From a virus, in the UHGV virus genome UHGV-0311442: a DNA stretch of 64,000 bases. The stretch is one strand, 5' to 3'. Shown piece after piece: positions 1,944-15,109 of this stretch. A program made the translations under genes and the position numbers. The notes under the pieces are model-generated. The model saw nothing but the letters and a program-made list of their open reading frames with translations, ran no database searches and was not told the DNA's origin. Each line of letters starts with the position of its first letter. Positions within the stretch are counted from its first letter, which is position 1.

Positions 1944-4900
1944 ATGCCGAGAGAAGACGCGGCGCAGTTTAACGGTACGCTAAGCACAGCGACGTACCCT
2001 AACCGATTTAACGTGGTCATTCCGCCTGAAGGACCTTTTTATCGTATCGGATTAAAACTCACAGTAGCCGACGATACCGCGCCTAACGGACGTCGTACTC
2101 TGATTGAGGGGTTGGACTACTATTTAGGCTATTACTTTAAAGAACTCGCAGAAGCTGAGCAAGATCAGATTTACGGCGGGTTCATGTTGCTGACCGCAAC
2201 AGAAATCGAATATGAGATTTTAGGGGTAGCACGCCAGTATCGTGTACCACAATCTGAAATCGGAAAGTTCTTAGTTCGTACTGACCTGAAAGACCCACGT
2301 AACGTGGACTGGTCAGAGTTAATGGCGTATGCGCCAGTTATTCAACCCATCGATCCTCCTGCTAACTTAGAAGAAGCTATTCTGAGGGATGAGGTTGTTA
2401 AAGCGTTAAACGATATCCGTAAGAAAATCGTTCAACGTTCAACAGAGTTAGATGCAGCGTTTACCGAAGTCACTAACCTGATTTACGAGAACGGTAAAAA
2501 GGTTTTCGACGAGGAGTTATACCAACACCACCTTAATCCTAACGCACACCAGTATACGACCACTGATGTTGGTGCCCTTCCGGTTTTGGGACGTGCTGTC
2601 GACGCTACAAAAGCGTTTGGACTGACGATTGACGAATTGGCTACGCTGATGGGTTCGGCGGGTATTGAGCAATCAGACGTTGATCAGTTAATGGGTGAAG
2701 CCCTTGGTACCGTTTACGGTCGTTGGGGTAGCACAAACGGTAACGAGCTGACGTTTAAAACCGCAGGCGGACACATCATCAGTATCCGTGGTGATAAGTG
2801 GTTAATTACCTCACCGCAACCGTTGGTGATTAAAGCAGACCAGGACAACAACGAATCGGGTTTGGCGGTTGAATTTAGTGCGGGACTGAATACGCTTTGG
2901 GTGCACTCTGGGACAGAACAGGATGTATTAGCGCCGGTTTACAACTCTGTGTATTTGGTTACACCAGAAATGGTGAACATGTACCTGACGTCTGTAACGT
3001 TACTTGAAGCAAATGCCTATTTCAAACCATCAGACAGCGTAAAACCATACGGTACAGCGAAGCAGTCTAATCCGCTAACGTTGAACGCGAATATTCCCAC
3101 AGCAACCGAGTCGGTTTATGGGGTGTTTTCGATTACGAATATCGCAACCTCCGTAGCACTAGGCACTGCTATTTCCCAAAAGGCGGTGACCGAATTAAAA
3201 GACCGGTTAGACTTGTACGTTGACGATGACTACACGGTTAACGGTAAAGGGTTTGTTAAGACAGGCGATAAAATGGTGTTAACCTTAACGAAAACCGATT
3301 TCGGTATCGATAAGATGGATAACACCATGCCGATCGCTAAACCGGTAACAAAAGCGTTAGCGAATGTGCTGAAAAATAAAAGTGTGAAGGAGCACACGCA
3401 CACTACCGCCGATTTGGATAATGTCCCGATTGGTAGTGCGACTGTAGATGGTATTTTACAGTTGTGGGATGCGATTGATGCCACGAATGATAAAGCCGTC
3501 ACGTCTCGTCAAGGGTGGTTGTTCGCAAAAGAGATCAAGAAGGTTTCCGATAAACTGAATACCATCTTACCTGCGTGGACTGTCGGTGGGGCGAAGTTCG
3601 GTAACAAAAACTTCTTACCCATTCCGGCACTCGGTAATTATTCAGGTTTTACAAAGAACCAGTCCTATCAGAAAGGCGTTGTAGGATATCAACAAGGTAA
3701 AGTTTATTCGTTACGTAATGCTTCTAATGGTGTACCTGGTACAGAGGCTATTTATTACGGTTATGCTGATATCAATACGTCGAATGCATTTGAGAACCCT
3801 CAGCAAACTTCGGTGAAATACCATCCTGCTGGGATGAGTAAATATCCTGGAGTGACCTTAAAAGCTATTTTGATCGGTGGTCAGGAAGCGATTATTTGTC
3901 TGGGTTCTGACAATAACCGTTATCTGGTCTTGTTCAATGGCTCGATGGACCACAGTAAGCACACAGTGGTGTGCCGTGTTACAATGCCGAATTATCGCGA
4001 TAATAGTCCCACTGGTTCAAACGAGATTCCGTGGAATCCTCGGCCAGAATCTGACGATGTTGTTCTGGTTGACGACCACGTTTACCTTCTTCGCTCCACG
4101 GTAAATAACGCTGCTTATGCCGTGGCGGCATGGCGTTTACGTAAAGCCGATTTGTCTACTAATGTTGCGTTAGAATTTGAACGTGTAACGTTAAATGGTG
4201 AAATGGGACAATTCGGAGATAACCTCTGCCTAAGAATTGGCCAGAAGACCGAAGAGTCGCAGACTGGTCAATTCTTCACGTATTACCCACCCGAGGCACG
4301 GGCTAAATGGACAATCGGTCACAACTTTGTCCATGGTCCAGAATGTAACCATGCTTGTGCGGTGCGTGACAGTGTGATTCGTGTGAATCATGTACCCACT
4401 GTGTGGTTTGCGGCTGCCGACGGTTCGACGATTAATTTCCGTCAATGGTCAACAAGTTTCACAATCGATACGTTAACGGGTAGAGTTACGTTGGAGGGTG
4501 CCGAACGTTTCCCCATTAAGGCTGATACTACCACACTGACGTTCGCGGATGGTTCAACTGTAGAAACCAGTCGTAAGTGGGGCGGTGGTCAAGCAAACAA
4601 TCGTTGTTTTGCAACGTATGCTAAACCTAACGGCACCGGAATGATGCTTTCCTGTTGGCAGGTTAACGATGCGGACCAGATGCCGAATGTTTCTATTAAA
4701 GGAACGCAAGGCAAAGAGTTTTTCGATTATTTGCGTTACGATAACCCGAACAATACCTCAGGCGAAGGAACGTTTACTTGGGATAAAGGCCGTGGTTCTA
4801 TCTATACCATCGGTCTTTCTCATCCTGTCGGTATCGGTGGTTCGAATAAGGTTTGGCTATCCAATCCACGCAACCGTTATACGATCGAAGTAGAAGTTGA

Positions 4901-7127
4901 CCCAAGTAAACCTTATGACGTTCCTGGATATAGCGGTTATGGCCCGAACAACAACCGTCGAGAAGTTGATGCAACCCTTTACGAACAGTTAAGCTGTATG
5001 GCTGCTTGCATGACTCCAGAGGAGCGTCACGGCCAGTTAAACGGTTGGTATTTGACGAAAGCGGAAACCTTCCCATATCGAAACATCTACGGTAACTTTG
5101 CCCTGTCATCAGAACGGCTGACGTTAGAGGAAGCGGATCGCCAGAAGATGATTAGGATGATTGTCGATGGTGCACCATCTGGTCAGGCAAACGGTTACGC
5201 GAACGAGCGCATCAGCGCAGCACACCAAAGCGGTAACGCGTTGTTTGCGCTCTGGTTGCTAGGCATTAACACTGTTTGTGAGTTCGACTTATTACAAGTC
5301 TCATGCATGAAAATCTTGAGTAACGGACGTCGAGTTCTCGACATCTATTATTTCATGGTGAGTCCGACTAAAGAAAACGGTTATCTACGTTTTAACTCGG
5401 CTACTTTCAAACTCGTTGATTGGTTCTTAGACCTTGATTACGGCTTAAGTTATCAGTCTCTGAGGGAAGAAGCGGGTAATAAAACGCGACGTGTAGGCCA
5501 GCCAATTTTTGCTTCTGCCGACGGTGTAAACTTCGGTCTATGGCTACCTTATACGCTGACAATACGGAATATCGGGGACCTAAATGCTTTGGGTTACGCT
5601 GCGAAGTATACCTTCGACCCTGGGTCGGGTTGGACTCGCGTTCCCGGTAAGTCACAATTGCGTCGGATGGCCCCTGCTCATAATCCCGAAACAGGCTGCT
5701 ACATGGGTGCGGGTAATTGGGACAAGATGGCACTAATTTTCTCTAAAGCAGATCGTGTCTTCTGTTCAGGTAACGCATATACAGCCGAAGAGTTCGTTAA
5801 TGACACCAGATTCACAACTGGGGGACAGGCGGTTATTATCGCTGGTGTGGAAACTGCCGAAGGTTGGATTCTATATTTGACGGAAGAGGTCAGGTTAGAT
5901 TTCGGTAGTAATAGCTATACATTACCGACGTGGTTGGTGGATTTAAGCAATGAATTCCCAGAAAACCATGCTAACCAGACGTTCTATGTTCATGCTGCTC
6001 TTGTAGGTTCGAAAGCTCAATATCAGATCGGTCTGGAAAAGCTGCCGGATACGAGTTCGCGATTATTTGTTGGTACAGTTACAACCGATAAAAAGCGCAT
6101 AGTTGCTATTAACATCGATAAAGTGAAACGGTTAGGCAGGGTTCGTGAATTAGAAGAACACGCTGCTGTTAGAGATCAGCACGACGTTGCAGCGGCGTAC
6201 GATCGAAAAACGGGTCCACTCCAAACCTTGGTTAACCAACCGCTGAAAGCCCCCACGGCATCTGCGGGCAAGGGTGCAGGGTATGCCGATGGTCAGAGAT
6301 GGAATGCGTTGACCGGGATCACAACACGTCCCAAACTGCCGATACAGGAAACCTACGCAGGTTATAAAAGTATCGGTAGAGTAGCGTATGAGAACTGCGC
6401 TGATCAGTTCTGGCAGAAAGCGGTCGCTGCAAACGTTGCAGCGGCTACTGCGTCTGAGAACAGTCAAGCGGCAGCCGCGAACATGAAGTGGTTGGGCGCG
6501 TATACGAAACCGACTACAGGTGCGAATGCATATCTGGCGCTGAGTCTGCGTGTTAAAGTGCCTGGTAATCCCGGCACCGCTAATCGTAGACTAAAAATCA
6601 GGCTTGCGGCTCCGACAGGTATAACCCAAGTTCGTTACGGGTTAAACCAGTCTGGTGGCACGATGACTGAACAGACAGTAACGTTAACTGCTAACAGTTA
6701 TCTGGAAAAAGAACACGCCGGATTTAAGCCAGCCGAAGAAGTCCGTGTACATGCTACGTTTGTCATTCCAAAAAATGAATACGATAGCTACCGTACGAAG
6801 TTCGGTGCTGTTCAGCTGATTGACGTTGAGTCGAACACTGTCATTAAACAGACAGATATCGACACACCGTTTATCGTGTATACCGACACGGAGTTAGCAG
6901 CGCAATCTGGTTTGGTGTATAAAGCGGTTAAGGGTCAGTTCCATCAACTCCCGTCTCAACCTGTCGTCATTGTAACTGATGGACAGACAGGGACTACGCC
7001 ACCGGTGAAAACCTCGTTTGCTGACGGGACATTAACGGTCTACGTGGCAACCACGTACGATGCGGTTAACCCAGCACAAACCCGCGATATCGATAAGCTC
7101 CAGTTCAATCTTATGTTTACATCTTAA
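1944..7127 (+). CDS. Giant (1727 aa) tail fibre / virion structural protein
   Basis: Uninterrupted 5.2-kb ORF with RBS aggag 8 nt upstream of ATG; sits directly upstream of fibre genes; no catalytic motif recognised. Confidence 0.8.
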   Translation: MPREDAAQFNGTLSTATYPNRFNVVIPPEGPFYRIGLKLTVADDTAPNGRRTLIEGLDYYLGYYFKELAEAEQDQIYGGFMLLTATEIEYEILGVARQYRVPQSEIGKFLVRTDLKDPRNVDWSELMAYAPVIQPIDPPANLEEAILRDEVVKALNDIRKKIVQRSTELDAAFTEVTNLIYENGKKVFDEELYQHHLNPNAHQYTTTDVGALPVLGRAVDATKAFGLTIDELATLMGSAGIEQSDVDQLMGEALGTVYGRWGSTNGNELTFKTAGGHIISIRGDKWLITSPQPLVIKADQDNNESGLAVEFSAGLNTLWVHSGTEQDVLAPVYNSVYLVTPEMVNMYLTSVTLLEANAYFKPSDSVKPYGTAKQSNPLTLNANIPTATESVYGVFSITNIATSVALGTAISQKAVTELKDRLDLYVDDDYTVNGKGFVKTGDKMVLTLTKTDFGIDKMDNTMPIAKPVTKALANVLKNKSVKEHTHTTADLDNVPIGSATVDGILQLWDAIDATNDKAVTSRQGWLFAKEIKKVSDKLNTILPAWTVGGAKFGNKNFLPIPALGNYSGFTKNQSYQKGVVGYQQGKVYSLRNASNGVPGTEAIYYGYADINTSNAFENPQQTSVKYHPAGMSKYPGVTLKAILIGGQEAIICLGSDNNRYLVLFNGSMDHSKHTVVCRVTMPNYRDNSPTGSNEIPWNPRPESDDVVLVDDHVYLLRSTVNNAAYAVAAWRLRKADLSTNVALEFERVTLNGEMGQFGDNLCLRIGQKTEESQTGQFFTYYPPEARAKWTIGHNFVHGPECNHACAVRDSVIRVNHVPTVWFAAADGSTINFRQWSTSFTIDTLTGRVTLEGAERFPIKADTTTLTFADGSTVETSRKWGGGQANNRCFATYAKPNGTGMMLSCWQVNDADQMPNVSIKGTQGKEFFDYLRYDNPNNTSGEGTFTWDKGRGSIYTIGLSHPVGIGGSNKVWLSNPRNRYTIEVEVDPSKPYDVPGYSGYGPNNNRREVDATLYEQLSCMAACMTPEERHGQLNGWYLTKAETFPYRNIYGNFALSSERLTLEEADRQKMIRMIVDGAPSGQANGYANERISAAHQSGNALFALWLLGINTVCEFDLLQVSCMKILSNGRRVLDIYYFMVSPTKENGYLRFNSATFKLVDWFLDLDYGLSYQSLREEAGNKTRRVGQPIFASADGVNFGLWLPYTLTIRNIGDLNALGYAAKYTFDPGSGWTRVPGKSQLRRMAPAHNPETGCYMGAGNWDKMALIFSKADRVFCSGNAYTAEEFVNDTRFTTGGQAVIIAGVETAEGWILYLTEEVRLDFGSNSYTLPTWLVDLSNEFPENHANQTFYVHAALVGSKAQYQIGLEKLPDTSSRLFVGTVTTDKKRIVAINIDKVKRLGRVRELEEHAAVRDQHDVAAAYDRKTGPLQTLVNQPLKAPTASAGKGAGYADGQRWNALTGITTRPKLPIQETYAGYKSIGRVAYENCADQFWQKAVAANVAAATASENSQAAAANMKWLGAYTKPTTGANAYLALSLRVKVPGNPGTANRRLKIRLAAPTGITQVRYGLNQSGGTMTEQTVTLTANSYLEKEHAGFKPAEEVRVHATFVIPKNEYDSYRTKFGAVQLIDVESNTVIKQTDIDTPFIVYTDTELAAQSGLVYKAVKGQFHQLPSQPVVIVTDGQTGTTPPVKTSFADGTLTVYVATTYDAVNPAQTRDIDKLQFNLMFTS

Positions 7128-7167
7128 CGCCACGAGACAAGGACGTCTCGGATTAAGGAGAGTGGCC

Positions 7168-8367
7168 ATGGCCTCCATTGTATATCAGTACCCTTTAGAT
7201 TTAACGGGAACCCTAACCTCTAACGCCGTGGAGCGTCAGGTTACGTTAGGTACAGGTAAAGTTAACCGTGCGTTTGCTTTTCCTGACGGACCGTTTTATG
7301 CTGATACGTTCCGCTTGCGGGTTGCCAATCGACCCGACGCGACGTATGAACGCGGAACGGACTATGAGTTGATTTTTGCACACCCGGGTTACGAGAAATT
7401 GACGAAGAACCGGGAAGTGGTAATGGCGGTTGTTGTAACGAACACCGCGATTCCGACCGATATCACGGTATCGGCGCAAGTAGTCGGTGGTCCGCAGTCT
7501 GCAAACGTGACTGCGATAGAACAGGCGATTGCCGAGTTGAATCTCGATAATCGAACTGTTGGCTTTAAAGACTTGCGAAATGTGCCGGACACGTTTCCTT
7601 CGGCACCAACGTATAAAGACGTCGGCGATATTTACGGCTTCGAATATATCATTACAGTGCTCGCTGGCATCAAAGATGCGATAACGGCGGGTGATGCTGT
7701 ACAGCTTGAGAACATCAAAGCGATTCTCGAAAGCCTGAAAAACGATTTCCTGGACGCGCTGAACGCGCACATTAACGCCACGGGTAATGTCCACCATCTG
7801 GATATTCATCAGGTTAACGGGTTAACAGAAACGGAGATCCGTGCACTTATCCGTGACGTACAATCTGCCATCGATGCAACCATTACTGATATTAATGCGT
7901 TGAAGAAAGCAGACGAAGCGTTAGGAAAACGTATTGATGCTGTTGTCAAATCTTTGGAAGCGTGGAACGACCAACTTAACATCGTTGCCCAAAACTACCA
8001 GAAGATGGCATTGGCATTGGCGAACCTAAATTCGCTAGTGTTACAGTTACAGAAAAATATCAACGATCTGAACACCAAACTCAACCAAGCGATTCAGCGC
8101 ATTGCTGCGTTAGAACAACGGGGTAATGAGTCCGATCAGAAAATTGATAATCTGCAACAAAACCTGGATGCGCTTAAACAACAGGTTGCGAATAACACGA
8201 ACGCAATCAGTCAGGCGAATCAGAACCTACAAAACCATATTGCGGCGGATAACCCGCACACAGGTTATCTCCACAAGAAATACGGCGGTGTGGTTCAGGC
8301 TCCAGTGCACGTTAACGCTAACTTGACGTCCCGTGATGACGTTCAGGCAGAAGCGGGTACGAAATAA
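7168..8367 (+). CDS. Coiled-coil fibre protein (fibritin / tail-fibre-like)
   Basis: RBS aaggagag then ATG at 7168 (ORF-track start 7060 lies inside the upstream gene); C-terminal half is heptad-rich, Q/N/L coiled coil. Confidence 0.75.
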   Translation: MASIVYQYPLDLTGTLTSNAVERQVTLGTGKVNRAFAFPDGPFYADTFRLRVANRPDATYERGTDYELIFAHPGYEKLTKNREVVMAVVVTNTAIPTDITVSAQVVGGPQSANVTAIEQAIAELNLDNRTVGFKDLRNVPDTFPSAPTYKDVGDIYGFEYIITVLAGIKDAITAGDAVQLENIKAILESLKNDFLDALNAHINATGNVHHLDIHQVNGLTETEIRALIRDVQSAIDATITDINALKKADEALGKRIDAVVKSLEAWNDQLNIVAQNYQKMALALANLNSLVLQLQKNINDLNTKLNQAIQRIAALEQRGNESDQKIDNLQQNLDALKQQVANNTNAISQANQNLQNHIAADNPHTGYLHKKYGGVVQAPVHVNANLTSRDDVQAEAGTK

Positions 8368-8376
8368 CTTTATTAC

Positions 8377-8422
8377 AGGAGGAACTATGCTTATGGGCGT
8401 AGTCCTCCATTCTTTTTTATTT
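8377..8422 (+). terminator. Rho-independent terminator separating the fibre genes from the Cys-rich peptide genes
   Basis: Stem ggaggaactatgc / gcgtagtcctcc followed by ttcttttttatttt. Confidence 0.6.
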
Positions 8423-8434
8423 TAAGGATACGTG

Positions 8435-8830
8435 ATGGCGATCAGTGTTAAAAATGTACGTGACCGAATCACCAACGTAGAGAACCAAATGGCAACTGGC
8501 CCACGTGTTGATCCGCAAGTTGCGTCGAAAGCACATAATGCCGCCGACACTTTTTCGGGTTGGACGCCAAGTCGGTTAGACTGCGGGGGAAGCTGTAGCT
8601 GGACGTGCTCAAACGGTTGTACGCATGGCTGTACGAGTTGTTCGGGCACCTGTACGTCGGTGTGTGTAGGTAGCTGCTCCTCTGCGTGCGGTAACCAGTG
8701 TACTGGATGTAGTTCAACGTGTTCTGGTGGCTGTTCAGGTTGCAGTGGGACCTGTGGAGGTGCTTGCTCGGGCCGTTGTTCTACGGGTTGTTCTGGTGCT
8801 TGCTCCGGTGGCTGTTCTGGCCCAACCTAA
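8435..8830 (+). CDS. Cys-rich repeat peptide 1 (~131 aa, ~26 Cys in CxxxC / CxxC repeats of C-S/T/G); candidate RiPP precursor or crosslinked structural protein
   Basis: RBS aagga 6 nt upstream of ATG; N-terminal ~50 aa leader-like and Cys-free, then the motif Y/L-D-C-G-G-S-C-S-W-T-C-S begins the Cys repeat core. Confidence 0.75.
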   Translation: MAISVKNVRDRITNVENQMATGPRVDPQVASKAHNAADTFSGWTPSRLDCGGSCSWTCSNGCTHGCTSCSGTCTSVCVGSCSSACGNQCTGCSSTCSGGCSGCSGTCGGACSGRCSTGCSGACSGGCSGPT

Positions 8831-8840
8831 GAGGTGAAAA

Positions 8841-9239
8841 ATGGCAATTGGATTACCTGCGCTACAAGCGCGGCTAAATAACATTGACAACACTGCATTG
8901 AAGAATACGGGTGCAGTACAAAACTATATTCGTGGGAAAGCGACGAACAACGCAGACCTATTCGGTGGGCAAGCTCGCAACCACTATGACTGCGGGGGAA
9001 GCTGTAGCTGGACCTGTTCGAGCTGTTCTGGTGGTTGTACAGGGAACGCATCAGGCGGCTGTGGCTCTTCCTGTTCTGCAAACTGTGTATCAGGTTGTAG
9101 CGCGGGCTGTAGTGGATGTTCGAATACCTGTTCTGGTGGCTGCTCAGGAAGCTGTACGGGGAGTTGTTCTAACTCGTGTGTAGGAAACTGTTCTGCAGGC
9201 TGCTCTGGTGCTTGCTCCGGTGGCTGTTCTGGGAGGTAA
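8841..9239 (+). CDS. Cys-rich repeat peptide 2 (132 aa), paralog of peptide 1
   Basis: RBS gaggtg; shares the YDCGGSCSWTCS motif and a 29-bp identical 3' DNA segment (GCSGACSGGCSG) with peptide 1. Confidence 0.75.
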   Translation: MAIGLPALQARLNNIDNTALKNTGAVQNYIRGKATNNADLFGGQARNHYDCGGSCSWTCSSCSGGCTGNASGGCGSSCSANCVSGCSAGCSGCSNTCSGGCSGSCTGSCSNSCVGNCSAGCSGACSGGCSGR

Positions 9240-9241
9240 TT

Positions 9242-9448
9242 GTGATTAGCCTTAAGAACCTTCGTGATCGGTTAGTAACAGCGGAAGGGTATATTACGAC
9301 CGCTAACGCAAACAACTATATTGCAAACCAGGGCACCGTGTCTTCAACCAATAACCTTGCCGGTTTACCTTTAAGCCATTATAACTGTAACGGCGGATGT
9401 AGCTGGTCGTGCAGTGGTAGCTGTAGTAAAGGTGCGGGGGGAAGGTAA
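9242..9448 (+). CDS. Cys-rich peptide 3 (68 aa, GTG start), short paralog with 4 Cys
   Basis: RBS gggagg 5 nt upstream of GTG 9242; N-terminus ISLKNLRDRL parallels peptide 1 (ISVKNVRDRI); core YNCNGGCSWSCSGSCS. Confidence 0.6.
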   Translation: MISLKNLRDRLVTAEGYITTANANNYIANQGTVSSTNNLAGLPLSHYNCNGGCSWSCSGSCSKGAGGR

Positions 9449-9597
9449 CTAAGCCCTCCAGTGGTAGTATGTCTATTACGCAATAACCGAGTTAATCGTA
9501 CGGGTTTACTACTGAGTTTCAAGTTACCGGTAGGCAATGGTGCGGTGGTTTCTATACCCTGAATGTCCGTTTGACCGTGAAATAATTGGAGCAATCA

Positions 9598-10485
9598 ATG
9601 AAGAATGATTTACATTTAGCGTACAAAACAATTTTCAATCATCCACTTCACATTTCTTCCCCTGATTCCGTACGTGCACACTTAGCAGATGAAGTTCGTC
9701 TGTTGACTCAGTTGCCGGGCGAATGGCCTAAAGTGCGCGGACGTTTCTTTACCGATCGTAAAAACTATCGTGTGGAAAATACGTTTAAGATTCGTGATCT
9801 GACGGCAGAAAGTGTAGTGGTCTTTACCGGTGACTCCGAGTTGCGTGGTAAACTGGTTGCGGGTAAATATTTCTTTAGTGACGGGATTTTGAATAACTCC
9901 GTAGATATGGAATTGTTCTTTACCCCATTTGAAGAAATGGGCGCAAAACCAGTTGCCCGTCGTTGGTGGTCGCCGGATTACTTAGGCTCGTTCCCGTATT
10001 TCTTTACCCTGGTAACACCAGAAACGAAGAACTATTTCGATACGGAATCGTATATCGAAATTGAAGGGTACGAAGCGTTAGGGATTAATTGCTTAGCGGA
10101 TTTAATGGCGTATAGCTATAAGTTCGTGTGGGATCGTGAACGTTCCGTGTGGGTTGCCCTGACGGATGAACACGAAATTACAAAACGCATCCGTAAGCCT
10201 TGGATGCAGCATTTGATTCAAACGCGTATTGGCGAGCATCCGTCAACAGAAGCGGATCTGGCAAAACTCGTTAGTTTCTTAATGACGAAAGTCACGTTAA
10301 CTGACGAAGAGAAAGCAGCAGTGTCGGCGGTGTTGGACCGTAACGTAACGTTAGCGGATTTAGAACGTTTAAATGTCCGTTATAAAGACCTTAATCGTAT
10401 TTTGGAAGCGTATAACTCTCCATTCTTGTTAACCCCTGGTGCTAACGTAGACGACGATCCTTTGTTCGCCATTGATTATATTTAA
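9598..10485 (+). CDS. Hypothetical protein inside the Cys-peptide / radical-SAM cluster (possible accessory or recognition factor)
   Basis: ORF with RBS ggag 6 nt upstream of ATG 9598 (ORF-track TTG at 9586 overlaps the RBS). Confidence 0.65.
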   Translation: MKNDLHLAYKTIFNHPLHISSPDSVRAHLADEVRLLTQLPGEWPKVRGRFFTDRKNYRVENTFKIRDLTAESVVVFTGDSELRGKLVAGKYFFSDGILNNSVDMELFFTPFEEMGAKPVARRWWSPDYLGSFPYFFTLVTPETKNYFDTESYIEIEGYEALGINCLADLMAYSYKFVWDRERSVWVALTDEHEITKRIRKPWMQHLIQTRIGEHPSTEADLAKLVSFLMTKVTLTDEEKAAVSAVLDRNVTLADLERLNVRYKDLNRILEAYNSPFLLTPGANVDDDPLFAIDYI

Positions 10486-10506
10486 AAACGACCGGAGTCA
10501 CCTGCA

Positions 10507-11430
10507 ATGACAACCAATGCAGAACCAAGGTTATCGAATCGTTTATACGATAAACCCACCGTATTGTCCGTAGTCGCTACGTCCAAGTGTAACCTGGATT
10601 GTAGCTTCTGCGGTGGAGCCTATTACATGAATCGTGAAGATTCTCCGCGAGAGTTTCAACGTGAGCGAATTTTGGAAGCGCTGGAAGCTAATCCAACCAT
10701 TACCGAAATTCAGTGGACGGGTGGTGAGCCATTACTGGCAACCCGTAAAATTGAGGCGTTTGTTGACGAATTAAAAGTGATTCGTCCAGAACTCAAACAC
10801 CAGTTGTATACCAATGGCTTAAAGATGCGTAAATCGCATCTCCCGTTGCTAAAACAGTTTGACAATGTCTACGTTAGCATCGATGGGTTTAAGTCGTCTG
10901 AGCGCCCGTTTATGCGCTTTATTGACGAAGGCTGTTACGAAGCACTGGAAACGATCTACGAGCTGGATAATGTCCAGACTTGGGGTGTCCTGACACGGGA
11001 CCGTTTAGGGGACAAACGCTGGCACGAAGATATTATTCAGCTGCACAGCGCGATTTACCATTACGGTTTCCGTGCAATGACGTTACTCTTAGATGCGAAA
11101 ATGCCAAAACCTTTATCGCCTGACCACGTCATGAACTTTATTTACGGCTACTATCAGGTTCAGGACAACATTGAACGTCTGAATGTAGTAAATGGACGTG
11201 AATGTGGCTTTACGGTAAGTAAAGTGTTTGAAGAAGGGTGTAACGTTTGCAGCGAAAGTCTTTGGATTAATGCAGACGGTGGTGAGCACCAACTCCAGAA
11301 TGCACCTAACGTTCTGGAATCGGGATGTAACCAACTGGCCTTCTCTATCGGTGTAGAGGCGTACGAATATATTCGTCGCGTAGTGATGGCAGGACGTAAT
11401 AGAGGGGCGGCAAATGAGCCAAGCAAATGA
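10507..11430 (+). CDS. Radical SAM enzyme (CxxxCxxC), candidate peptide-modifying maturase
   Basis: N-terminal CNLDCSFCGG cluster; GGEPLL SAM-binding motif; YTNG and SIDG motifs; four C-terminal Cys (possible twitch-like auxiliary cluster). Confidence 0.8.
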   Translation: MTTNAEPRLSNRLYDKPTVLSVVATSKCNLDCSFCGGAYYMNREDSPREFQRERILEALEANPTITEIQWTGGEPLLATRKIEAFVDELKVIRPELKHQLYTNGLKMRKSHLPLLKQFDNVYVSIDGFKSSERPFMRFIDEGCYEALETIYELDNVQTWGVLTRDRLGDKRWHEDIIQLHSAIYHYGFRAMTLLLDAKMPKPLSPDHVMNFIYGYYQVQDNIERLNVVNGRECGFTVSKVFEEGCNVCSESLWINADGGEHQLQNAPNVLESGCNQLAFSIGVEAYEYIRRVVMAGRNRGAANEPSK

Positions 11431-12736
11431 ATTCCCTAAGCAGTTAACGTATCAGATCGTAACCAACCTTTCGTGTAACCTGGACTGCGAATATTGTTAC
11501 GAACGTAAGTACCCGCGTAACAACAAAGCGGCCGACATTGTTGATTTCTTACACGCCTGTTTTGAACGTGATAAAAACGAACCGAATGTTGAAGTTATTA
11601 TCGACATTATCGGCGGTGAACCGTTCATGCAGCCTAAGTTGCTGCTGGCAGCGTTTGAAACCGCAGAGCAGTTGTGTAAAGAACACAACCGTCCGTTTAT
11701 GTTTAGTATCTCCACGAACGGGACCTTGTTAGATCGTCCGTTGAACCGTGAGATTGTAGAACGTTGGAAAGACAAACTTTCGGTTGGGGTTTCGATTGAT
11801 GGCTTGCCTGAGTCCCATGACCGTTATCGTATCTTCACAACAACGCGCCAGGGTTCTTACGAAGCCGCAGTACGTGGCTATAATTACTTAAAAGAGGTTG
11901 GCATTGCAGAACTCGGCGTAAAAGCGACCTTTACGTTAGAAACACTGCCGTTCTATGCTGCAGGGATGAAGTCATTAATTGACATTACTGGCGGTGGGAC
12001 AATTTCTGGGAACGTAACCTTCGAAGACGTTATGCCACGTAGCATGGCGACGTCAATCGCTTTACAGATGATGGATGTGATAGATTATTGGGTTGAGAAA
12101 GGATTACACACCAACCCACGTAATATCTTATCGCACATCATTCCAGAAGGGTTGGATTTCGATACGATTTGGGAACCGAACTGGCGTGACCAGTTACTGT
12201 ATAATGACACCGTACGGTTGAACCCAGAACGTTTACGTCCGTTCTGTGGGACGTTAACGCACATGACGTGCTTAGGATTTGACCGTAAGATCTTTGGCTG
12301 TAACCGCTTTATGTCAACGGTAACGTCGCGTTCTGCGGTGTTTGAGTTGGTAGGTCGGGAATTCGTCAGTCTGGACAACGGTAAATTGTTAGAAGAGATT
12401 CAAACGCAATATACCAACTACCCAGAGACCTGTTTAGGTTGTCCGATGAAACACGCTTGTGGTAGCTGTGCGGCGGCTTCTTACGAGAACGGGGAAGGAA
12501 CGTTAGAAGACCGTAAAGCGTATCACGCTGAACGTCGTCAGTGTGGCTGGACGACAGCGAAACTGATGGTGGCGGAATACTGGAAACAGAAGATGGGTAC
12601 GACGTCAGCAAAAGCGTTCCACGACACGAGCATGTGTTATTGCCCACGCTGTGTTCGTGAACGTGCCCAAAAGGAAAAATTATTAAGAGAAGCCAAAGAT
12701 GAAACCAATTCTGATCAACAATATTACGAAGCGTAG
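11414..12736 (+). CDS. Radical SAM enzyme with SPASM-like C-terminal domain, candidate peptide maturase
   Basis: CNLDCEYCY cluster; GGEPFM; STNGTLL; SIDGLPESHDRYR (SxDGxxxxHDxxR as in PqqE/anSME/AlbA-type enzymes); C-terminal CLGCPMKHACGSC plus further Cys; start overlaps upstream rSAM gene by 17 nt. Confidence 0.85.
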   Translation: MSQANEFPKQLTYQIVTNLSCNLDCEYCYERKYPRNNKAADIVDFLHACFERDKNEPNVEVIIDIIGGEPFMQPKLLLAAFETAEQLCKEHNRPFMFSISTNGTLLDRPLNREIVERWKDKLSVGVSIDGLPESHDRYRIFTTTRQGSYEAAVRGYNYLKEVGIAELGVKATFTLETLPFYAAGMKSLIDITGGGTISGNVTFEDVMPRSMATSIALQMMDVIDYWVEKGLHTNPRNILSHIIPEGLDFDTIWEPNWRDQLLYNDTVRLNPERLRPFCGTLTHMTCLGFDRKIFGCNRFMSTVTSRSAVFELVGREFVSLDNGKLLEEIQTQYTNYPETCLGCPMKHACGSCAAASYENGEGTLEDRKAYHAERRQCGWTTAKLMVAEYWKQKMGTTSAKAFHDTSMCYCPRCVRERAQKEKLLREAKDETNSDQQYYEA

Positions 12737-13271
12737 AATTCGACTTCTGGATAAGTTTCTGGAAAACAGTAAGCTATTCGGTTGTTATGTGGTGATTAAC
12801 GGTGAAGATTTTACCGATGACGTAAAACGCTTACTGATTCGTCACGGTGTGACTGTAATCATCCCAATGTACTGCACCGAACTTACTGACCTGTCGGTCG
12901 CGGAAATTGAAAAACGTAACCCAGGGTTTGAAGAACGGGTATTGGATTTCCCACGTCACAAAATTGCGTTTCTACGCCGCTCTTTAAGCGAACCCAGCGC
13001 AGAATCTATCACTGTGTTGGCATTGTCCTTCCCCGGCATTACTATCTTCGCAACACGTAACCCGAACTCACCGATTGATGGGTTTTACGATGAGCGAGAG
13101 AAATTTAATACCGTGATTTTTCCTGAGCTAACGCCAGAAGAATGCCAGGGTATCCGTATCGATTGGGAATCGGACTTCGACACAAGATTCCGTCATATCG
13201 ATTTTGAACTGTTAATCGAATTAGGGTTGATTAAAGGAGACGATGAATGTCTGCTACTGGTGAAGGCTTAA
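12699..13271 (+). CDS. Hypothetical protein (cluster-associated)
   Basis: ORF overlapping the 3' end of the rSAM gene; same operon. Confidence 0.55.
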   Translation: MKPILINNITKRRIRLLDKFLENSKLFGCYVVINGEDFTDDVKRLLIRHGVTVIIPMYCTELTDLSVAEIEKRNPGFEERVLDFPRHKIAFLRRSLSEPSAESITVLALSFPGITIFATRNPNSPIDGFYDEREKFNTVIFPELTPEECQGIRIDWESDFDTRFRHIDFELLIELGLIKGDDECLLLVKA

Positions 13272-13918
13272 CGAAAGAAGAAATCCGTCGCCGTTATTTT
13301 GCGCACGATTTACCGATTGACCGTCATGGTAACTACATGGAGAAAATCGGTAGTGAAGATCACGGCCGTACAGGGTTTTGTGCGTTACTGCACTATAAGT
13401 TGATTGATGGGATGTCTGATCGCGAAGCATTGGAACAAATGCGTAACTACGACATGTCTGAAATCGAAGCACGGTTTACGCTACAGAAAGCGAAAGACTT
13501 TGTTAACGACACGTTGGGGATTGACCTGGAAGAAATTCGTGCAGGTTTACGTTCCACGGTGCGGTACATCTTTACCGATGTTCAGAAAATTCTAAGCGCT
13601 CTGGAATTCCGTTATCAGGATGCGCGCTATGCTGAGATTCAGGTAGGTGATTTCACTTTCCAGGCAGATGAGAAGTCACAGGTAGCACTGAGTCGTTATA
13701 TCCAGTCAGAAACTGCGCCAGCGTATTGGTTAACGGCTAACAACACCCGTATCGAACCGTTTACGTTAGAACAGTGCAAGACGTTGCTGGCAGCAATCGT
13801 TGAGCGCGATCAAAGACTACACCACGCAATGTCTGAGCAGAAAAGAGAAGTCAGAGCTTGGGCTGAAGCACGTGATTACGATTCAATTAAAGCGTTTGCG
13901 TTAGAGCAAGGGCTGTAA
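13247..13918 (+). CDS. Hypothetical protein (cluster-associated)
   Basis: RBS aaggaga 6 nt upstream of ATG; last gene before the bidirectional terminator. Confidence 0.65.
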   Translation: MSATGEGLTKEEIRRRYFAHDLPIDRHGNYMEKIGSEDHGRTGFCALLHYKLIDGMSDREALEQMRNYDMSEIEARFTLQKAKDFVNDTLGIDLEEIRAGLRSTVRYIFTDVQKILSALEFRYQDARYAEIQVGDFTFQADEKSQVALSRYIQSETAPAYWLTANNTRIEPFTLEQCKTLLAAIVERDQRLHHAMSEQKREVRAWAEARDYDSIKAFALEQGL

Positions 13919-13939: not shown

Positions 13940-13981
13940 ATACCTACCTCCTATTACGGGAGGTAGGTATTTTTATTTTTT
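13940..13981. terminator. Bidirectional rho-independent terminator between convergent genes
   Basis: Perfect 12-bp stem atacctacctcc / ggaggtaggtat flanked by an A-run upstream and a T-run downstream. Confidence 0.65.
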
Positions 13982-13982
13982 C

Positions 13983-14513
13983 TTAGGACGTAAAACCGTC
14001 CAGCTCACCGTTGGTGGTGGCCAGGTCAATACGATTATCAACAACTTTCGGCGTAATTACGAAAGTTGCCATTACACCTGGTTTATAACGGAGGTTCTTT
14101 TCAGTAACGGTGCACGTTACCGTACGCAGAGTGACGTTTTCATGTTCGTCTTTCTGGTCTTCGGTGTTGTACACAACGTCGCCTGGTGCGATAGCATCGT
14201 TCGGTTTAACTTTATTGATGTAATATTGTAACCAAGCGCGCAGTTCATTTTCTTGAACCCAGCGAGACAGATCGTCAGTTAGTTCAATACGGCCTACAAC
14301 ACCCGGTTCCAGACGATCGTAATGCAGTTCGATTGCACCTTTGAAATTCTCAGAACCTGGTAGTGCAGTCATGGTAACTTTGGTATTCTTACCTTCGCCT
14401 TCCAGCGCAGTAGGGAGACCAAAGGACACTTCTTTATCAGTTACCTGATGTGGTAGCTCAGTGTTAGCAGCATTATAAAGCGCGACCAACATCATCTGGT
14501 TAGTAGCGGCCAT
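13983..14513 (-). CDS. Paralog family A protein (176 aa), probable fibre-associated virion protein
   Basis: Tandem paralog of 14579..15109; both share architecture and C-terminal GELDGFT. Confidence 0.7.
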   Translation of the reverse strand: MAATNQMMLVALYNAANTELPHQVTDKEVSFGLPTALEGEGKNTKVTMTALPGSENFKGAIELHYDRLEPGVVGRIELTDDLSRWVQENELRAWLQYYINKVKPNDAIAPGDVVYNTEDQKDEHENVTLRTVTCTVTEKNLRYKPGVMATFVITPKVVDNRIDLATTNGELDGFTS

Positions 14514-14578: not shown

Positions 14579-15109
14579 TTATTCTTTAGGAGACGGTGCG
14601 GTGAAGCCATCCAGTTCACCTTCCAAACCGCTCAGTGCTACTTTCTCAGGAGCCGGAGGAGTAACTTTATACGTCGCGACAGTACCAGGCAGGAACTTCA
14701 AGTGGCCAGCCACAACCGTTACCACGTAAATGGTTTTGCCTTCTTCTTCACGAGAAATAGTTTGCAGGTCGTTTTCACCGAACTCGTCATCGGTGTACCC
14801 TTTCTCAGCCATGGCTGCGTTAACTTTCGCCAGGATCTTCGTTGGTGAATCGAAATCGGTAGTAGGTGCAGTTACTTCAACTTCACCAACGATGTCGCAG
14901 GAAAGACGAGTATAGTGGAATTCTTTCTCGCCTTTGAAGTTCTGGCTTTCTGCCTTGGCGGTCAGAGTAATTTTAGTGTTGCGGCCAGCTTCTCCGGTGA
15001 ACTCAGCGACAGCACTAAAATTAACATCATTTACAGTCAACTTAGAAGCAGTTTGGTTGTTTTTAGCAATTACAATCTCGATAAGCTGCTGTTGAAAAGT
15101 TTTAGCCAT
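14579..15109 (-). CDS. Paralog family A protein (176 aa)
   Basis: Paralog of 13983..14513. Confidence 0.7.
   Translation of the reverse strand: MAKTFQQQLIEIVIAKNNQTASKLTVNDVNFSAVAEFTGEAGRNTKITLTAKAESQNFKGEKEFHYTRLSCDIVGEVEVTAPTTDFDSPTKILAKVNAAMAEKGYTDDEFGENDLQTISREEEGKTIYVVTVVAGHLKFLPGTVATYKVTPPAPEKVALSGLEGELDGFTAPSPKE

What the first reader, a model, noticed from the sequence alone, without database searches (positions are those of the whole stretch)
10507..12736. Two different radical-SAM enzymes encoded back to back with a 17-nt overlap
rSAM-1 (307 aa) has the canonical cluster and four C-terminal Cys (twitch-like?); rSAM-2 (440 aa) has a fuller SPASM-like CxxCx5CxxC arrangement plus extra Cys. 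Two distinct maturases could install different crosslink types or act on different peptides of the triplet. The overlapping coding ends imply translational coupling and stoichiometric co-expression.
Basis: partly seen in the sequence, partly recalled or inferred. Interest (0 to 1): 0.8.

Follow-up and report, generated by a model that had tools for sequence, protein, structure and literature searches.

The report
Radical-SAM pair that matures phage tail-fibre tips
Two adjacent iron-sulfur "radical SAM" enzymes in a giant Salmonella-type phage belong to a conserved four-part gene module that sits next to tail-fibre genes in very different phages, and most likely chemically cross-links a cysteine-every-fourth-residue fibre tip, a kind of virion protein modification I found no description of.

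Summary
rSAM-1 (10507-11430, 307 aa) and rSAM-2 (11414-12736, 440 aa) are intact, different radical-SAM enzymes that overlap by 17 nt. The window comes from an SPN3US-like jumbo phage, where the pair is already annotated as "putative radical SAM protein 1/2".

New here is the context.
- rSAM-2 is a full SPASM enzyme, sister to the CXXX-repeat (TIGR04115), PapB and CteB thioether maturases.
- rSAM-1 is a small phage-restricted family with only three conserved C-terminal Cys and a twitch-like predicted fold.
- The three upstream Cys-rich genes carry (C-S-G-x)n repeats behind a tail-fibre-like junction.
- In a Deferribacter lambda-like prophage, a Campylobacter P2-like prophage and three metagenomic contigs (two of unplaced phage type, one of jumbo-phage size), the same repeat domain is the C-terminus of a tail-fibre or fibre-like protein.
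- There it is followed by a phrog_8030-like protein, a small rSAM and a large rSAM. In one contig the two rSAMs are fused.

The pair is therefore most likely a tail-fibre-tip maturation module and not a bacteriocin pathway. Thioether cross-linking is inferred and not shown. "One enzyme per peptide" is weakened, because the pair also occurs where there is a single substrate.

The parts
1944..7127 (+). Giant tail/baseplate-fibre protein (1727 aa), homolog of SPN3US gp168
   Evidence: Syntenic with SPN3US gp168. gp168 is a tail protein of the virion, similar to phiKZ gp131 at the baseplate periphery and fibres (PMC5105663; virion MS).
7168..8367 (+). Virion structural protein with a coiled coil, homolog of SPN3US gp167 (ORF opens at 7060; probable start MASIVYQ at 7168)
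   Evidence: phrog_2163 at E 8e-103. SPN3US gp167 was detected in virions.
8435..8830 (+). Cys-repeat mini-fibre protein 1 (131 aa): ~49-aa fibre-like N-terminal segment plus 21 Cys at period 4
   Evidence: 17 of 20 Cys-Cys spacings are exactly 4. phrog_6085 at E 2e-40. Conserved in SPN3US, the Erwinia phages and CR5.
8841..9239 (+). Cys-repeat mini-fibre protein 2 (132 aa, 20 Cys)
   Evidence: TIGR04114 CXXX-repeat model scores 19.4 bits against a cut-off of 20. The junction KATNNADLFGGQARNHYDCGGSCSWTCS is 61% identical to the junction of the Deferribacter prophage fibre.
9242..9448 (+). Cys-repeat mini-fibre protein 3 (68 aa, GTG start, only 4 Cys)
   Evidence: The SD GGGAGG lies inside the end of gene 2. 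Orthologs are present in SPN3US, pEa_SNUABM_29, Asesino and L092. phrog_6085 at E 4e-24.
9598..10485 (+). phrog_8030-family protein (295 aa), proposed adaptor or chaperone of the module
10507..11430 (+). rSAM-1: small radical-SAM enzyme with a twitch-like C-terminus
   Evidence: PF04055 at 53 bits. Invariant C28/C32/C35, G72-G73-E74, C248 and G273-C274, with C245 near-invariant. AF2 pLDDT 88; the best folds are CteB, SuiB and anSME. The family is confined to phage contigs.
11414..12736 (+). rSAM-2: SPASM-domain radical-SAM maturase
   Evidence: PF04055 at 57 bits. Full-length alignment to TIGR04115 (115 bits) and PapB (117 bits), both below their cut-offs. Conserved C21/25/28 plus C278, C286, C296, C340, C343, C349, C352 and C377. 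The best PDB sequence match is CteB, 5wgg.
12699..13271 (+). phrog_7988 protein (190 aa), overlaps rSAM-2 by 38 nt; function unknown, syntenic in all relatives
13247..13918 (+). DUF4376 protein (223 aa) with weak tail-fibre PHROG hits; last gene of the unit
   Evidence: PF14301 at E 5e-11. phrog_1807 and phrog_2837, both tail families.
13940..13970 (.). Bidirectional intrinsic-terminator-like hairpin closing the + strand unit
   Evidence: 13-bp stem followed by a T-run on both strands. No terminator-like site lies between the fibre genes and the rSAM genes.

Best explanation
The two radical-SAM genes are the catalytic half of a conserved phage module that matures a tail-fibre tip.

The module has four parts:
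1. A protein ending in a Cys-every-fourth-residue (C-S-G-x)n domain, preceded by a fibre-type junction (..A-x-N-A-x-x-L-x-G..Y-x-C-x-x-x-C-S-W-[ST]-C).
2. A phrog_8030-like protein.
3. A small twitch-like rSAM (rSAM-1).
4. A large SPASM rSAM (rSAM-2).

In this SPN3US-like jumbo phage the repeat domain is carried on three small free-standing proteins (131, 132 and 68 aa), encoded between the virion fibre genes and the enzymes. In other phages it is the C-terminus of the fibre protein itself.

Proposed mechanism (inferred):
- During late infection, in the reducing cytoplasm, the phrog_8030-like protein presents the repeat domain. Neither enzyme has an N-terminal recognition domain.
- rSAM-2 uses its SAM cluster and two auxiliary [4Fe-4S] clusters to abstract H atoms and couple Cys thiols to carbons of neighbouring Ser, Gly or Thr residues. 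This would give many thioether cross-links, within a chain or between the chains of the fibre.
- rSAM-1 has one auxiliary site held by only three Cys and therefore probably an open iron. It carries out a second radical step on the same domain, either a different regiochemistry or subset of Cys, or epimerisation.
- The product would be a covalently stapled, redox-independent fibre tip or baseplate accessory. The enzymes and the adaptor stay out of the virion.

Shown here: the gene anatomy, the conserved ligands, the family relationships, the recurrence of the module next to fibres, and the absence of the SPN3US enzyme and adaptor orthologs from virions.

Inferred: the enzyme-substrate pairing, the thioether chemistry, the role of the adaptor, and incorporation of the products into the virion.
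For: 1. Enzymes intact. Both have CxxxCxxC and GGE invariant across homologs, and Pfam scores are above threshold.

2. Family of rSAM-2. It aligns end to end with TIGR04115, the 'CXXX-repeat target' maturase, and with PapB. Its best PDB sequence match is the thioether synthase CteB. Bona fide TIGR04115 enzymes (437-489 bits) lie next to CXXX-repeat peptides in bacterial loci.

3. Substrate candidates. The window peptides have 20-21 Cys at period 4 with consensus C-S-G-[GST], and peptide 2 scores 19.4 bits on TIGR04114 against a cut-off of 20.

4. Link to the tail fibre.
- The closest non-jumbo homologs of rSAM-2 (P0124, P0147, P0126, P0150) all lie directly after a tail-fibre or fibre-like gene whose C-terminus is a CXXX-repeat domain, together with a phrog_8030-like gene and a small rSAM.
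- The Campylobacter fibre hits tail-fibre PHROGs at E 1e-55.
- The fibre C-termini of L088, L090 and L157 hit phrog_6085, the family of the window peptides, at E 4e-12, 9e-6 and 3e-14.
- Peptide 2 against the L088 fibre junction is 61% identical over 36 aa.
- The small rSAM of L088 is homologous to rSAM-1 over its full length (hhalign probability 98.9%, E 1e-17).
- The L088 adaptor is homologous to phrog_8030 (probability 97.3%).
- The small and large rSAMs are fused in L087.
- A genuine TIGR04115 enzyme with a free 156-aa CXXX protein sits between tail-fibre and endolysin genes in a Bacillota prophage.

5. Co-occurrence. rSAM-1, rSAM-2 and full-length peptide matches are each found in 62 isolate records, all from the SPN3US/phiEaH2/CR5 group and from no other cultured phages.

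6. One transcription unit with the fibre genes is likely. There is no terminator-like site before 13940-13970.

7. In SPN3US, gp167-gp171 are virion proteins, while gp163, gp164 (the rSAMs) and gp165 are not, as expected for maturation factors.

8. No peptidase or exporter is present in the unit.
Against: - No experiment shows any modification, and no mass-spectrometry evidence places the Cys-rich proteins in a virion. They were never annotated in SPN3US, and their cores have ~1 Lys/Arg, so they would be nearly invisible to tryptic MS.
- rSAM-2 scores far below the curated cut-offs of TIGR04115 and PapB (115 and 117 bits against 350 and 340). The cores contain no Asp or Glu, so PapB-type chemistry cannot apply as such.
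- The canonical bacterial CXXX system pairs its rSAM with a TIGR04119 domain that is unrelated to rSAM-1 or phrog_8030. Extrapolating chemistry from that family is therefore indirect, and to my knowledge that family is itself uncharacterised.
- The function of rSAM-1 is not constrained beyond 'radical enzyme with one probable auxiliary site'.
- Several bacterial CXXX loci sit next to ABC transporters (L007, L030), so exported products exist in this wider family.
- The fibre identity of the L088, L090, L087 and L157 proteins rests on position, repeat character and partial PHROG hits. Only L089 has a strong tail-fibre domain hit.
Confidence: 0.6

Rival explanations
1. Classical RiPP. The three Cys-rich products are leader-core precursor peptides, and the two rSAMs turn them into a diffusible sacti- or ranthipeptide (bacteriocin, signal or host-manipulating factor) that is released at lysis and has no structural role.
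For: The layout looks like leader plus repetitive core. rSAM-2 is nearest to RiPP maturases. Bacterial CXXX-repeat loci with genuine TIGR04115 enzymes sit beside ABC transporters.
Against: There is no protease, exporter or immunity gene in the unit. Cores of 80 residues with 20 Cys are atypical of diffusible RiPPs. In five independent phage lineages the same domain is covalently part of a fibre or fibre-like protein next to the same enzymes. The unit is embedded between virion fibre genes and tail-related genes.
Confidence: 0.12
2. Division of labour by substrate. Each rSAM matures a different member of the peptide triplet, or installs its cross-link type on a separate peptide.
For: The three peptides fall into two long types and one short type that are conserved as distinct orthologous groups. 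Close relatives L092 and L093 carry an additional small-rSAM paralog inserted directly after peptide 1. L090 has three rSAMs.
Against: The small+large pair is present where there is one CXXX-bearing protein only (L088, L089), and it is fused into one polypeptide in L087. That fits two steps on one substrate better. The number of rSAMs does not track the number of peptides: three peptides with two enzymes here, and one fibre with three enzymes in L090.
Confidence: 0.15
3. The Cys-repeat domain is a metal- or Fe-S-binding domain, or a transient assembly domain comparable to an intramolecular chaperone. It trimerises the fibre and is later removed. The rSAMs would serve assembly or cleavage and would not produce permanent cross-links.
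For: The module occupies the position where tail-fibre assembly chaperones are usually encoded. The Cys density resembles that of metal-binding proteins. The SPN3US virion proteome lists no product from this interval, although the genes were not in the search database.
Against: Two radical enzymes of the peptide cross-linking clade are an unlikely requirement for simple metal binding. The free-standing 131-132-aa versions have nothing to be cleaved from.
Confidence: 0.1
4. rSAM-1 is unrelated to the peptides, for example a nucleotide-modifying, cofactor-making or viperin-like enzyme that merely lies next to rSAM-2.
For: Weak N-terminal hits to MoaA, viperin and QueE models, and viperin structures among the Foldseek matches.
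Against: All those hits cover only the generic rSAM core and fall far below their cut-offs. The top folds are the peptide maturases CteB, SuiB and anSME. The family is always adjacent to, or fused with, the large SPASM enzyme and a CXXX fibre domain across distant phages.
Confidence: 0.03

Closest known systems
CXXX-repeat peptide maturation system of NCBIfam (TIGR04114 target, TIGR04115 radical SAM/SPASM maturase, TIGR04119 second maturase domain)
   Same: The substrate has Cys at period 4 with small residues and an early C-x-W-T-C unit. The SPASM rSAM aligns end to end with rSAM-2. One genuine member (L009, 449 bits) sits in a prophage tail-fibre/lysis module.
   Different: rSAM-2 and its phage and prophage relatives score 105-160 bits against a cut-off of 350. 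The partner is a small rSAM plus a phrog_8030-like protein, not TIGR04119, and no homology to TIGR04119 was found. The repeat domain is attached to, or derived from, a tail fibre. To my knowledge the family's chemistry has not been established.
PapB/PapA (freyrasin) ranthipeptide system
   Same: A SPASM rSAM without an N-terminal recognition domain. The substrate has six CXXXD repeats, each giving one thioether, and the substrate Cys binds auxiliary cluster 1 (PMC12373016). It is the best NCBIfam hit of rSAM-2.
   Different: The score is 117 bits against a cut-off of 340. The acceptor Asp or Glu required by PapB is absent from all phage cores (0 D/E in 13 peptides). PapB has no second rSAM.
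CteB/SCIFF thioether synthase (PDB 5wgg)
   Same: Best solved-structure match by sequence for rSAM-2 and by predicted fold for rSAM-1. The substrate is a Cys-rich peptide.
   Different: CteB carries an N-terminal recognition domain that both phage enzymes lack, since their CxxxCxxC motif starts at residue 21-28. rSAM-1 has only an abbreviated C-terminal domain with three conserved Cys.
His-Xaa-Ser system HxsB/HxsC (TIGR03978/TIGR03977)
   Same: A short-period repeat peptide is served by a pair of rSAMs, one large SPASM type and one small of ~290 aa, plus an extra protein of unknown role. rSAM-2 hits HxsB (75 bits) and rSAM-1 hits HxsC (39 bits).
   Different: Both scores are far below the cut-offs of 370 and 268. 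The repeat is different (HXS against CXXX). The Hxs system is bacterial, with no phage or fibre context.
Tail-fibre assembly chaperones and C-terminal intramolecular chaperone domains (e.g. P2 gpG, T4 gp38/gp57A; from established phage biology)
   Same: The genes lie immediately downstream of the fibre gene, are needed for maturation of the distal fibre tip, and are not themselves in the virion.
   Different: Known chaperones act non-covalently or by autoproteolysis. None is a radical enzyme. No sequence or fold similarity was detected.
SkfB and other twitch-domain rSAMs
   Same: Best PDB sequence hit of rSAM-1. It has a single auxiliary site, with Cys flanking a predicted beta-hairpin and helix.
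   Different: Only three conserved Cys. The NF033640 twitch model scores 38 bits against a cut-off of 170. The family is phage-restricted.

Membership tests
Radical SAM superfamily (PF04055) | CxxxCxxC motif ligating the SAM-binding [4Fe-4S] cluster | tested here: met
   rSAM-1 C28/C32/C35 and rSAM-2 C21/C25/C28 are invariant in 27 and 26 aligned homologs.
Radical SAM superfamily (PF04055) | Profile score above Pfam's gathering threshold, and the GGE SAM-binding motif | tested here: met
   53 and 57 bits against 29.5. G72-G73-E74 and G67-G68-E69 are invariant.
Radical SAM superfamily (PF04055) | Reductive cleavage of SAM to the 5'-deoxyadenosyl radical | not testable with these tools
   Needs anaerobic reconstitution and a SAM-cleavage assay.
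SPASM-domain rSAM (rSAM-2) | Seven- or eight-Cys C-terminal motif (C-x9-15-G-x4-C ... C-x2-C-x5-C-x3-C ... C) for two auxiliary clusters | tested here: met
   C278, C286-x9-C296, C340-x2-C343-x5-C349-x2-C352 and C377 are conserved. The spacing of the last pair is x2 where the canonical motif has x3.
SPASM-domain rSAM (rSAM-2) | Match to a dedicated SPASM profile | tested here: inconclusive
   No separate Pfam SPASM hit at E<=0.1. The full-length TIGR04115 alignment (residues 10-371 on profile positions 3-345 of 359) does cover that region.
TIGR04115 CXXX-repeat-target maturase | Score at or above the curated cut-off (350 bits) | tested here: not met
   114.7 bits. Genuine members in L007, L009 and L015 score 437-489 bits.
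TIGR04115 CXXX-repeat-target maturase | Encoded next to a CXXX-repeat target | tested here: met
   Three CXXX-repeat genes lie 1-2.5 kb upstream in the same unit. The same pairing holds in all relatives examined.
TIGR04114 CXXX-repeat target | Score at or above the cut-off (20 bits); tandem CXXX units | tested here: inconclusive
   Peptide 2 scores 19.4 bits and peptide 1 scores 14.4 bits, both just below the cut-off. By direct count, 182 CxxxC and 23 CxxC spacings occur in 13 phage peptides.
PapB-family ranthipeptide maturase (NF047865) | Score at or above 340 bits; substrate with a Cys donor and a downstream Asp or Glu acceptor | tested here: not met
   116.8 bits. No Asp or Glu occurs in any core. 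The PapB acceptor requirement is taken from PMC12373016.
Twitch-domain rSAM (rSAM-1) | One auxiliary cluster ligated by Cys around a beta-hairpin-helix element following the rSAM core | tested here: inconclusive
   Three conserved Cys (C245, C248, C274) flank the predicted strands 251-254 and 260-262 and helix 275-281. A fourth ligand was not identified. NF033640 scores 38 bits against 170.
HxsB/HxsC paired rSAM system | Scores above the cut-offs; His-Xaa-Ser repeat substrate | tested here: not met
   75 bits against 370 and 39 bits against 268. The substrate repeat is CXXX.
Classical exported RiPP gene cluster | Leader peptidase and/or dedicated exporter or immunity gene in the cluster | tested here: not met
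   Pfam, NCBIfam and PHROG scans of every gene from 7060 to 13918 show none.
Phage tail-fibre module component | Conserved position among tail-fibre or baseplate genes in unrelated phages, and homology of the substrate to fibre proteins | tested here: met
Phage tail-fibre module component | Physical presence of the modified Cys-repeat proteins in the tail or virion | not tested
   Published SPN3US virion MS used an annotation that lacks these genes. The raw data could not be re-searched here.

The most novel reading that the evidence does not exclude
Phages of several morphotypes (SPN3US-like jumbo myoviruses, P2-like myoviruses, lambda-J-type siphoviruses, Bacillota prophages) build part of their receptor-binding fibre from a Cys-every-fourth-residue domain. 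A dedicated radical-SAM pair plus an orphan adaptor covalently cross-links this domain in the cytoplasm. This would be the first RiPP-type radical post-translational modification of a virion structural protein. It would give a redox-independent 'stapled' fibre tip, and the small rSAM-1 family would represent a new phage-only enzyme activity.
Probability: 0.5. Interest if true: 0.9.

Novelty: new variant of a known kind. Interest (0 to 1): 0.77.

Why it matters
If correct, it extends radical-SAM peptide cross-linking from small secreted natural products to the structural proteins of virus particles. It also identifies a new way for phages to stabilise or diversify their host-recognition organelle, made in a reducing cytoplasm where disulfides cannot form.

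It gives a concrete function to two genes that have been annotated only as "putative radical SAM protein" in SPN3US-like phages since 2011. It explains three Cys-rich genes that are unannotated or annotated in the wrong frame. It defines a small phage-only rSAM family and an orphan-fold partner.

SPN3US is an established genetic and proteomic model with amber mutants and virion MS, so the hypothesis is directly testable. It also bears on engineering host range in therapeutic jumbo phages, and it offers enzymes that may install many thioethers in a simple repeat scaffold.

Tried and rejected
- Literature. Ten full-text searches (SPN3US or phiEaH2 with radical SAM; CXXX-repeat; TIGR04115; ranthipeptide with phage; radical SAM with tail fiber or thioether) found no description of this module. 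The radical-SAM genes in Campylobacter phage CP220 and in a cyanophage are unrelated contexts. The search was badly designed and is uninformative.
- The genome-contig scan was saturated by the generic CNLxCxYC pattern and returned mostly unrelated SPASM enzymes. It was useful only for the CXXX loci that happened to be included.
- The look-up of encoding contigs failed five times before it worked.
- Pfam found nothing in the peptide N-termini. tblastn of the N-terminus found no fibre outside the SPN3US group at E<=1. The fibre link came only from the prophage loci.
- I tested whether the canonical second maturase domain TIGR04119 corresponds to phrog_8030 or to rSAM-1. It does not.
- The 149-nt spacer 9449-9597 was checked as a possible attenuator. 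It has no significant fold (z = 0.27) and is not conserved.
- The sigma-70 promoter scan is at background level and is uninformative for a phiKZ-like phage.
- A PapB-type Cys-Asp chemistry was rejected for lack of acidic acceptors.
- Cluster-ligand geometry in the rSAM-1 model could not be measured, because coordinates are not exposed.
Full report
**Observation**

The window carries two forward-strand ORFs exactly as described.
- rSAM-1 is 10507-11430 (307 aa) with CNLDCSFC.
- rSAM-2 is 11414-12736 (440 aa) with CNLDCEYC and CLGCPMKHACGSC.

They overlap by 17 nt, and a GAGGGG ribosome-binding site precedes the second start. Both exceed the Pfam Radical_SAM threshold, at 53 and 57 bits against 29.5. 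They share only 25% identity over their first ~150 residues. They are therefore two distinct enzymes and not recent duplicates.

**Where the window comes from**

The region is about 72% identical in DNA to Salmonella phage SPN3US and to Erwinia phage pEa_SNUABM_29. At protein level it is 99% identical to a 225-kb IMG/VR contig (L091) and to contigs in Salmonella assemblies. It is therefore an SPN3US-like (phiKZ-related) jumbo phage that is not among sequenced isolates.

In SPN3US the two genes are gp164 and gp163, annotated only as "putative radical SAM superfamily protein 2/1". The gene order is identical in SPN3US, pEa_SNUABM_29, Cronobacter phage CR5, Erwinia phages Wellington and Asesino:
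1. giant fibre protein
2. virion structural protein
3. Cys-rich genes
4. phrog_8030 protein
5. small rSAM
6. large rSAM
7. phrog_7988 protein
8. DUF4376 protein

**The enzymes**

*rSAM-2.*
- It aligns over its whole length with NCBIfam TIGR04115 ("radical SAM peptide maturase, CXXX-repeat target family") and with the PapB ranthipeptide maturase model. Both scores are far below the cut-offs, at 115 and 117 bits against 350 and 340.
- Its best solved relative by sequence is the thioether synthase CteB (5wgg), followed by anSME.
- An alignment of 26 homologs shows the SAM-cluster Cys invariant, together with a complete SPASM set: C278, C286, C296, C340, C343, C349, C352 and C377.
- The SPN3US-like clade alone adds a C-terminal CxCxxC.

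*rSAM-1.*
- It gives only generic N-terminal core hits.
- Its family is tiny. Only 41 hits were found in 5.8 billion sequences, mostly on contigs of jumbo-phage size. About 16 clusters reach E<1e-30 among 1.84 billion representatives. It occurs in 62 phage isolate records, all in the SPN3US/phiEaH2/CR5 group.
- Invariant positions are C28/C32/C35, GGE, C248 and G273-C274. C245 is near-invariant.
- The AlphaFold model is confident (pLDDT 88). After the rSAM barrel it shows a beta-hairpin and helix flanked by the three Cys.
- Foldseek ranks CteB, SuiB and anSME first.

rSAM-1 is therefore a minimal, twitch-like member of the peptide-modifying branch, with a three-Cys auxiliary site. An open iron at that site is an inference.

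**The candidate substrates**

Immediately upstream lie three genes: 8435-8830, 8841-9239 and 9242-9448. Each has a ~48-aa N-terminal segment. This is followed by 21, 20 or 4 Cys spaced almost perfectly every fourth residue.

Across 13 orthologs the unit is C-S-G-[G/S/T]. There is no Asp or Glu in any core, and about one Lys or Arg per core. They fall in phrog_6085 and brush the TIGR04114 CXXX-repeat model, at 19.4 bits against a cut-off of 20.

In SPN3US these genes are unannotated, or annotated in the wrong frame as gp166. The published virion proteome could therefore not have detected them. That proteome does contain gp167-gp171 (fibre and tail proteins) but not gp163, gp164 or gp165 (PMC5694885 Supplementary Table 1). 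gp168 is a tail protein related to phiKZ gp131 at the baseplate periphery (PMC5105663).

**The decisive comparison**

The closest homologs of rSAM-2 outside the jumbo-phage clade are 33-40% identical to it. I fetched their genomic contexts.

| Locus | Source | Module |
|---|---|---|
| L088 | Deferribacter abyssi prophage (after a GpJ-like tail-tip gene) | 302-aa fibre-type protein ending ...KATNADQLGGQAGSYYRCSDCSWTCSSSCTGSC..., then a 250-aa protein, a 263-aa rSAM and the 385-aa SPASM rSAM |
| L089 | Campylobacter pinnipediorum P2-like prophage | Bona fide tail fibre (PF12571; tail-fibre PHROGs at E 1e-55) ending GCNGCSGSCSGSCSSGCTACSGCSGSCSG, then a 250-aa protein, the large rSAM, a 284-aa rSAM, DUF1353, sheath and tube |
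| L090 | Metagenomic contig (GpJ-like gene upstream) | Fibre with the CXXX C-terminus, adaptor, and three rSAMs |
| L087 | Metagenomic contig | Fibre with the CXXX C-terminus, adaptor, and the small and large rSAM fused in one 668-aa protein |
| L157 | 213-kb IMG/VR contig | 568-aa fibre with the CXXX C-terminus, then a small rSAM with an extra domain and a large rSAM |

The homologies are measurable.
- The window's peptide 2 against the L088 fibre junction is 61% identical over 36 residues.
- The fibre C-termini of L088, L090 and L157 hit phrog_6085 at E 4e-12, 9e-6 and 3e-14.
- The small rSAM of L088 matches the rSAM-1 profile over its full length, including the C-terminal CxC...GC (probability 98.9%, E 1e-17).
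- The 250-277-aa proteins match phrog_8030 (probability 97.3%).

Separately, a Bacillota prophage (L009) has a free 156-aa CXXX protein and a genuine TIGR04115 enzyme (449 bits) between tail-fibre and endolysin genes.

The unit of conservation is therefore a four-part module: [fibre-type junction + CXXX-repeat domain] + [phrog_8030-like] + [small rSAM] + [large SPASM rSAM]. It always sits where tail-fibre accessory genes sit. In the window's phage the repeat domain has become three free-standing mini-proteins.

**Mechanism**

The best-supported reading is that rSAM-1 and rSAM-2 mature a fibre-tip domain. This rests on three things: the module's recurrence, the fusion, and the absence of the SPN3US enzyme orthologs from virions.

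By analogy with its nearest characterised relatives, rSAM-2 most likely forms Cys-to-carbon thioethers. PapB makes six thioethers in CXXXD repeats with the substrate Cys bound to auxiliary cluster 1 (PMC12373016). CteB is the other characterised relative.

The acceptor cannot be Asp or Glu here. Ser, Gly or Thr carbons, or inter-chain links in a trimeric fibre, are the candidates.

Neither enzyme has an N-terminal recognition domain, since the motifs start at residue 21-28. The orphan-fold phrog_8030 protein is therefore the natural candidate for substrate presentation.

rSAM-1 would perform a second radical step on the same domain. All of this chemistry is inference.

No terminator-like site separates the fibre genes from the cassette, and a strong bidirectional hairpin at 13940-13970 closes the unit. 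This fits late co-expression with the fibres.

**Rivals**

- *Diffusible RiPP or bacteriocin.* This is disfavoured by the lack of protease, exporter and immunity genes and by the fusion of the domain to fibre proteins elsewhere. Bacterial CXXX loci with ABC transporters do exist, however.
It is kept alive by an extra small-rSAM paralog next to peptide 1 in close relatives (L092 and L093).
- *Metal-binding or transient assembly role for the domain.* This cannot be excluded.
- *A non-peptide role for rSAM-1.* This is unlikely, given its fixed association.

**Comparison with known systems**

The module works like a CXXX-repeat, PapB or SCIFF thioether system, and its two-rSAM architecture resembles HxsB/HxsC. 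It fails the membership cut-offs of all of them. It also replaces the canonical TIGR04119 partner with unrelated proteins.

Ten literature searches found no description of radical-SAM modification of phage fibres or of this module. The library does not cover all journals.

**Verdict**

The finding as written, two adjacent rSAM genes, is real but already visible in public annotations. Its significance lies in the tail-fibre context found here. I rate it a new variant of a known kind, with interest 0.77. About 0.6 confidence applies to the overall explanation, roughly 0.8 to the enzyme-substrate pairing, and roughly 0.5 to thioether chemistry and virion incorporation.

Noticed in passing
L001 (SPN3US NC_027402) 4950-5342, 5353-5757, 5773-5979; annotated gp166/ACQ60_gp100 at L001 5426-5761: In the SPN3US GenBank and RefSeq records the three Cys-rich genes are missing, and the one annotated CDS in the interval is an out-of-frame ORF. 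Many other records in the group annotate 'none' or wrong-strand ORFs here. Published proteomics could therefore not detect these products.
   Followed up: partly
window 12650-12667 (rSAM-2 residues 413-418, CYCPRC) and the C-terminal tail to 12736: rSAM-2 of the SPN3US-like clade has an extra conserved CxCxxC plus an acidic ...QFYEA tail. This is absent from the prophage and bacterial homologs. It could be an additional metal site or a substrate-like element.
   Followed up: partly
L092 2483-3394 and L093 (IMG/VR contigs, ~80% aa relatives): Close relatives carry a second small-rSAM paralog (303 aa, P0012 type, ~60% identical to rSAM-1), inserted between Cys-rich gene 1 and gene 2. The window lacks it.
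   Followed up: partly
L087 3834-5840; L090 4306-7134; L157 4998-7543: The enzyme complement varies. The small and large rSAM are fused in one 668-aa protein (L087). L090 has three consecutive rSAMs. L157 has a 472-aa small rSAM with an extra C-terminal domain.
   Followed up: partly
window 16340-17014 (-); L089 8068-8433: A DUF1353 protein (55 bits), annotated 'tail assembly chaperone' in SPN3US RefSeq, lies ~2.4 kb downstream on the other strand. In the Campylobacter prophage a DUF1353 gene directly follows the rSAM pair. It may be a further accessory of the same fibre system.
   Followed up: no
window 13983-14513 (-) and 14579-15109 (-): Tandem 176-aa paralogs (DUF7941) correspond to SPN3US gp160, one of the most abundant head proteins in the virion proteome. 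They are transcribed convergently with the fibre/rSAM unit.
   Followed up: no
window 9449-9597: A 149-nt non-coding spacer lies between Cys-rich gene 3 and the phrog_8030 gene. It is an insertion relative to SPN3US and L092 (~20 nt there), with partial similarity in L094. It has no significant RNA fold (z = 0.27).
   Followed up: yes
protein hits P0053-P0075, P0001, P0008, P0025: Many Salmonella enterica and E. coli 'genome' assemblies contain ~220-245-kb contigs encoding this cassette. SPN3US-like jumbo phages are therefore frequently co-sequenced with, or carried by, isolates, through pseudolysogeny, a carrier state or contamination.
   Followed up: no
L015 9110-9885; L007, L030: Bacterial CXXX-repeat loci with genuine TIGR04115+TIGR04119 fusion enzymes (721-738 aa) can also carry three tandem precursor genes (L015) and can sit beside ABC transporters. 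This is a non-phage, probably exported branch of the same substrate type.
   Followed up: partly
window 12699-13271 and 13247-13918: The genes after rSAM-2 (phrog_7988 and DUF4376) overlap their upstream neighbours by 38 and 25 nt and are syntenic in all jumbo relatives. They are absent from the prophage versions of the module, and their role is unknown.
   Followed up: no
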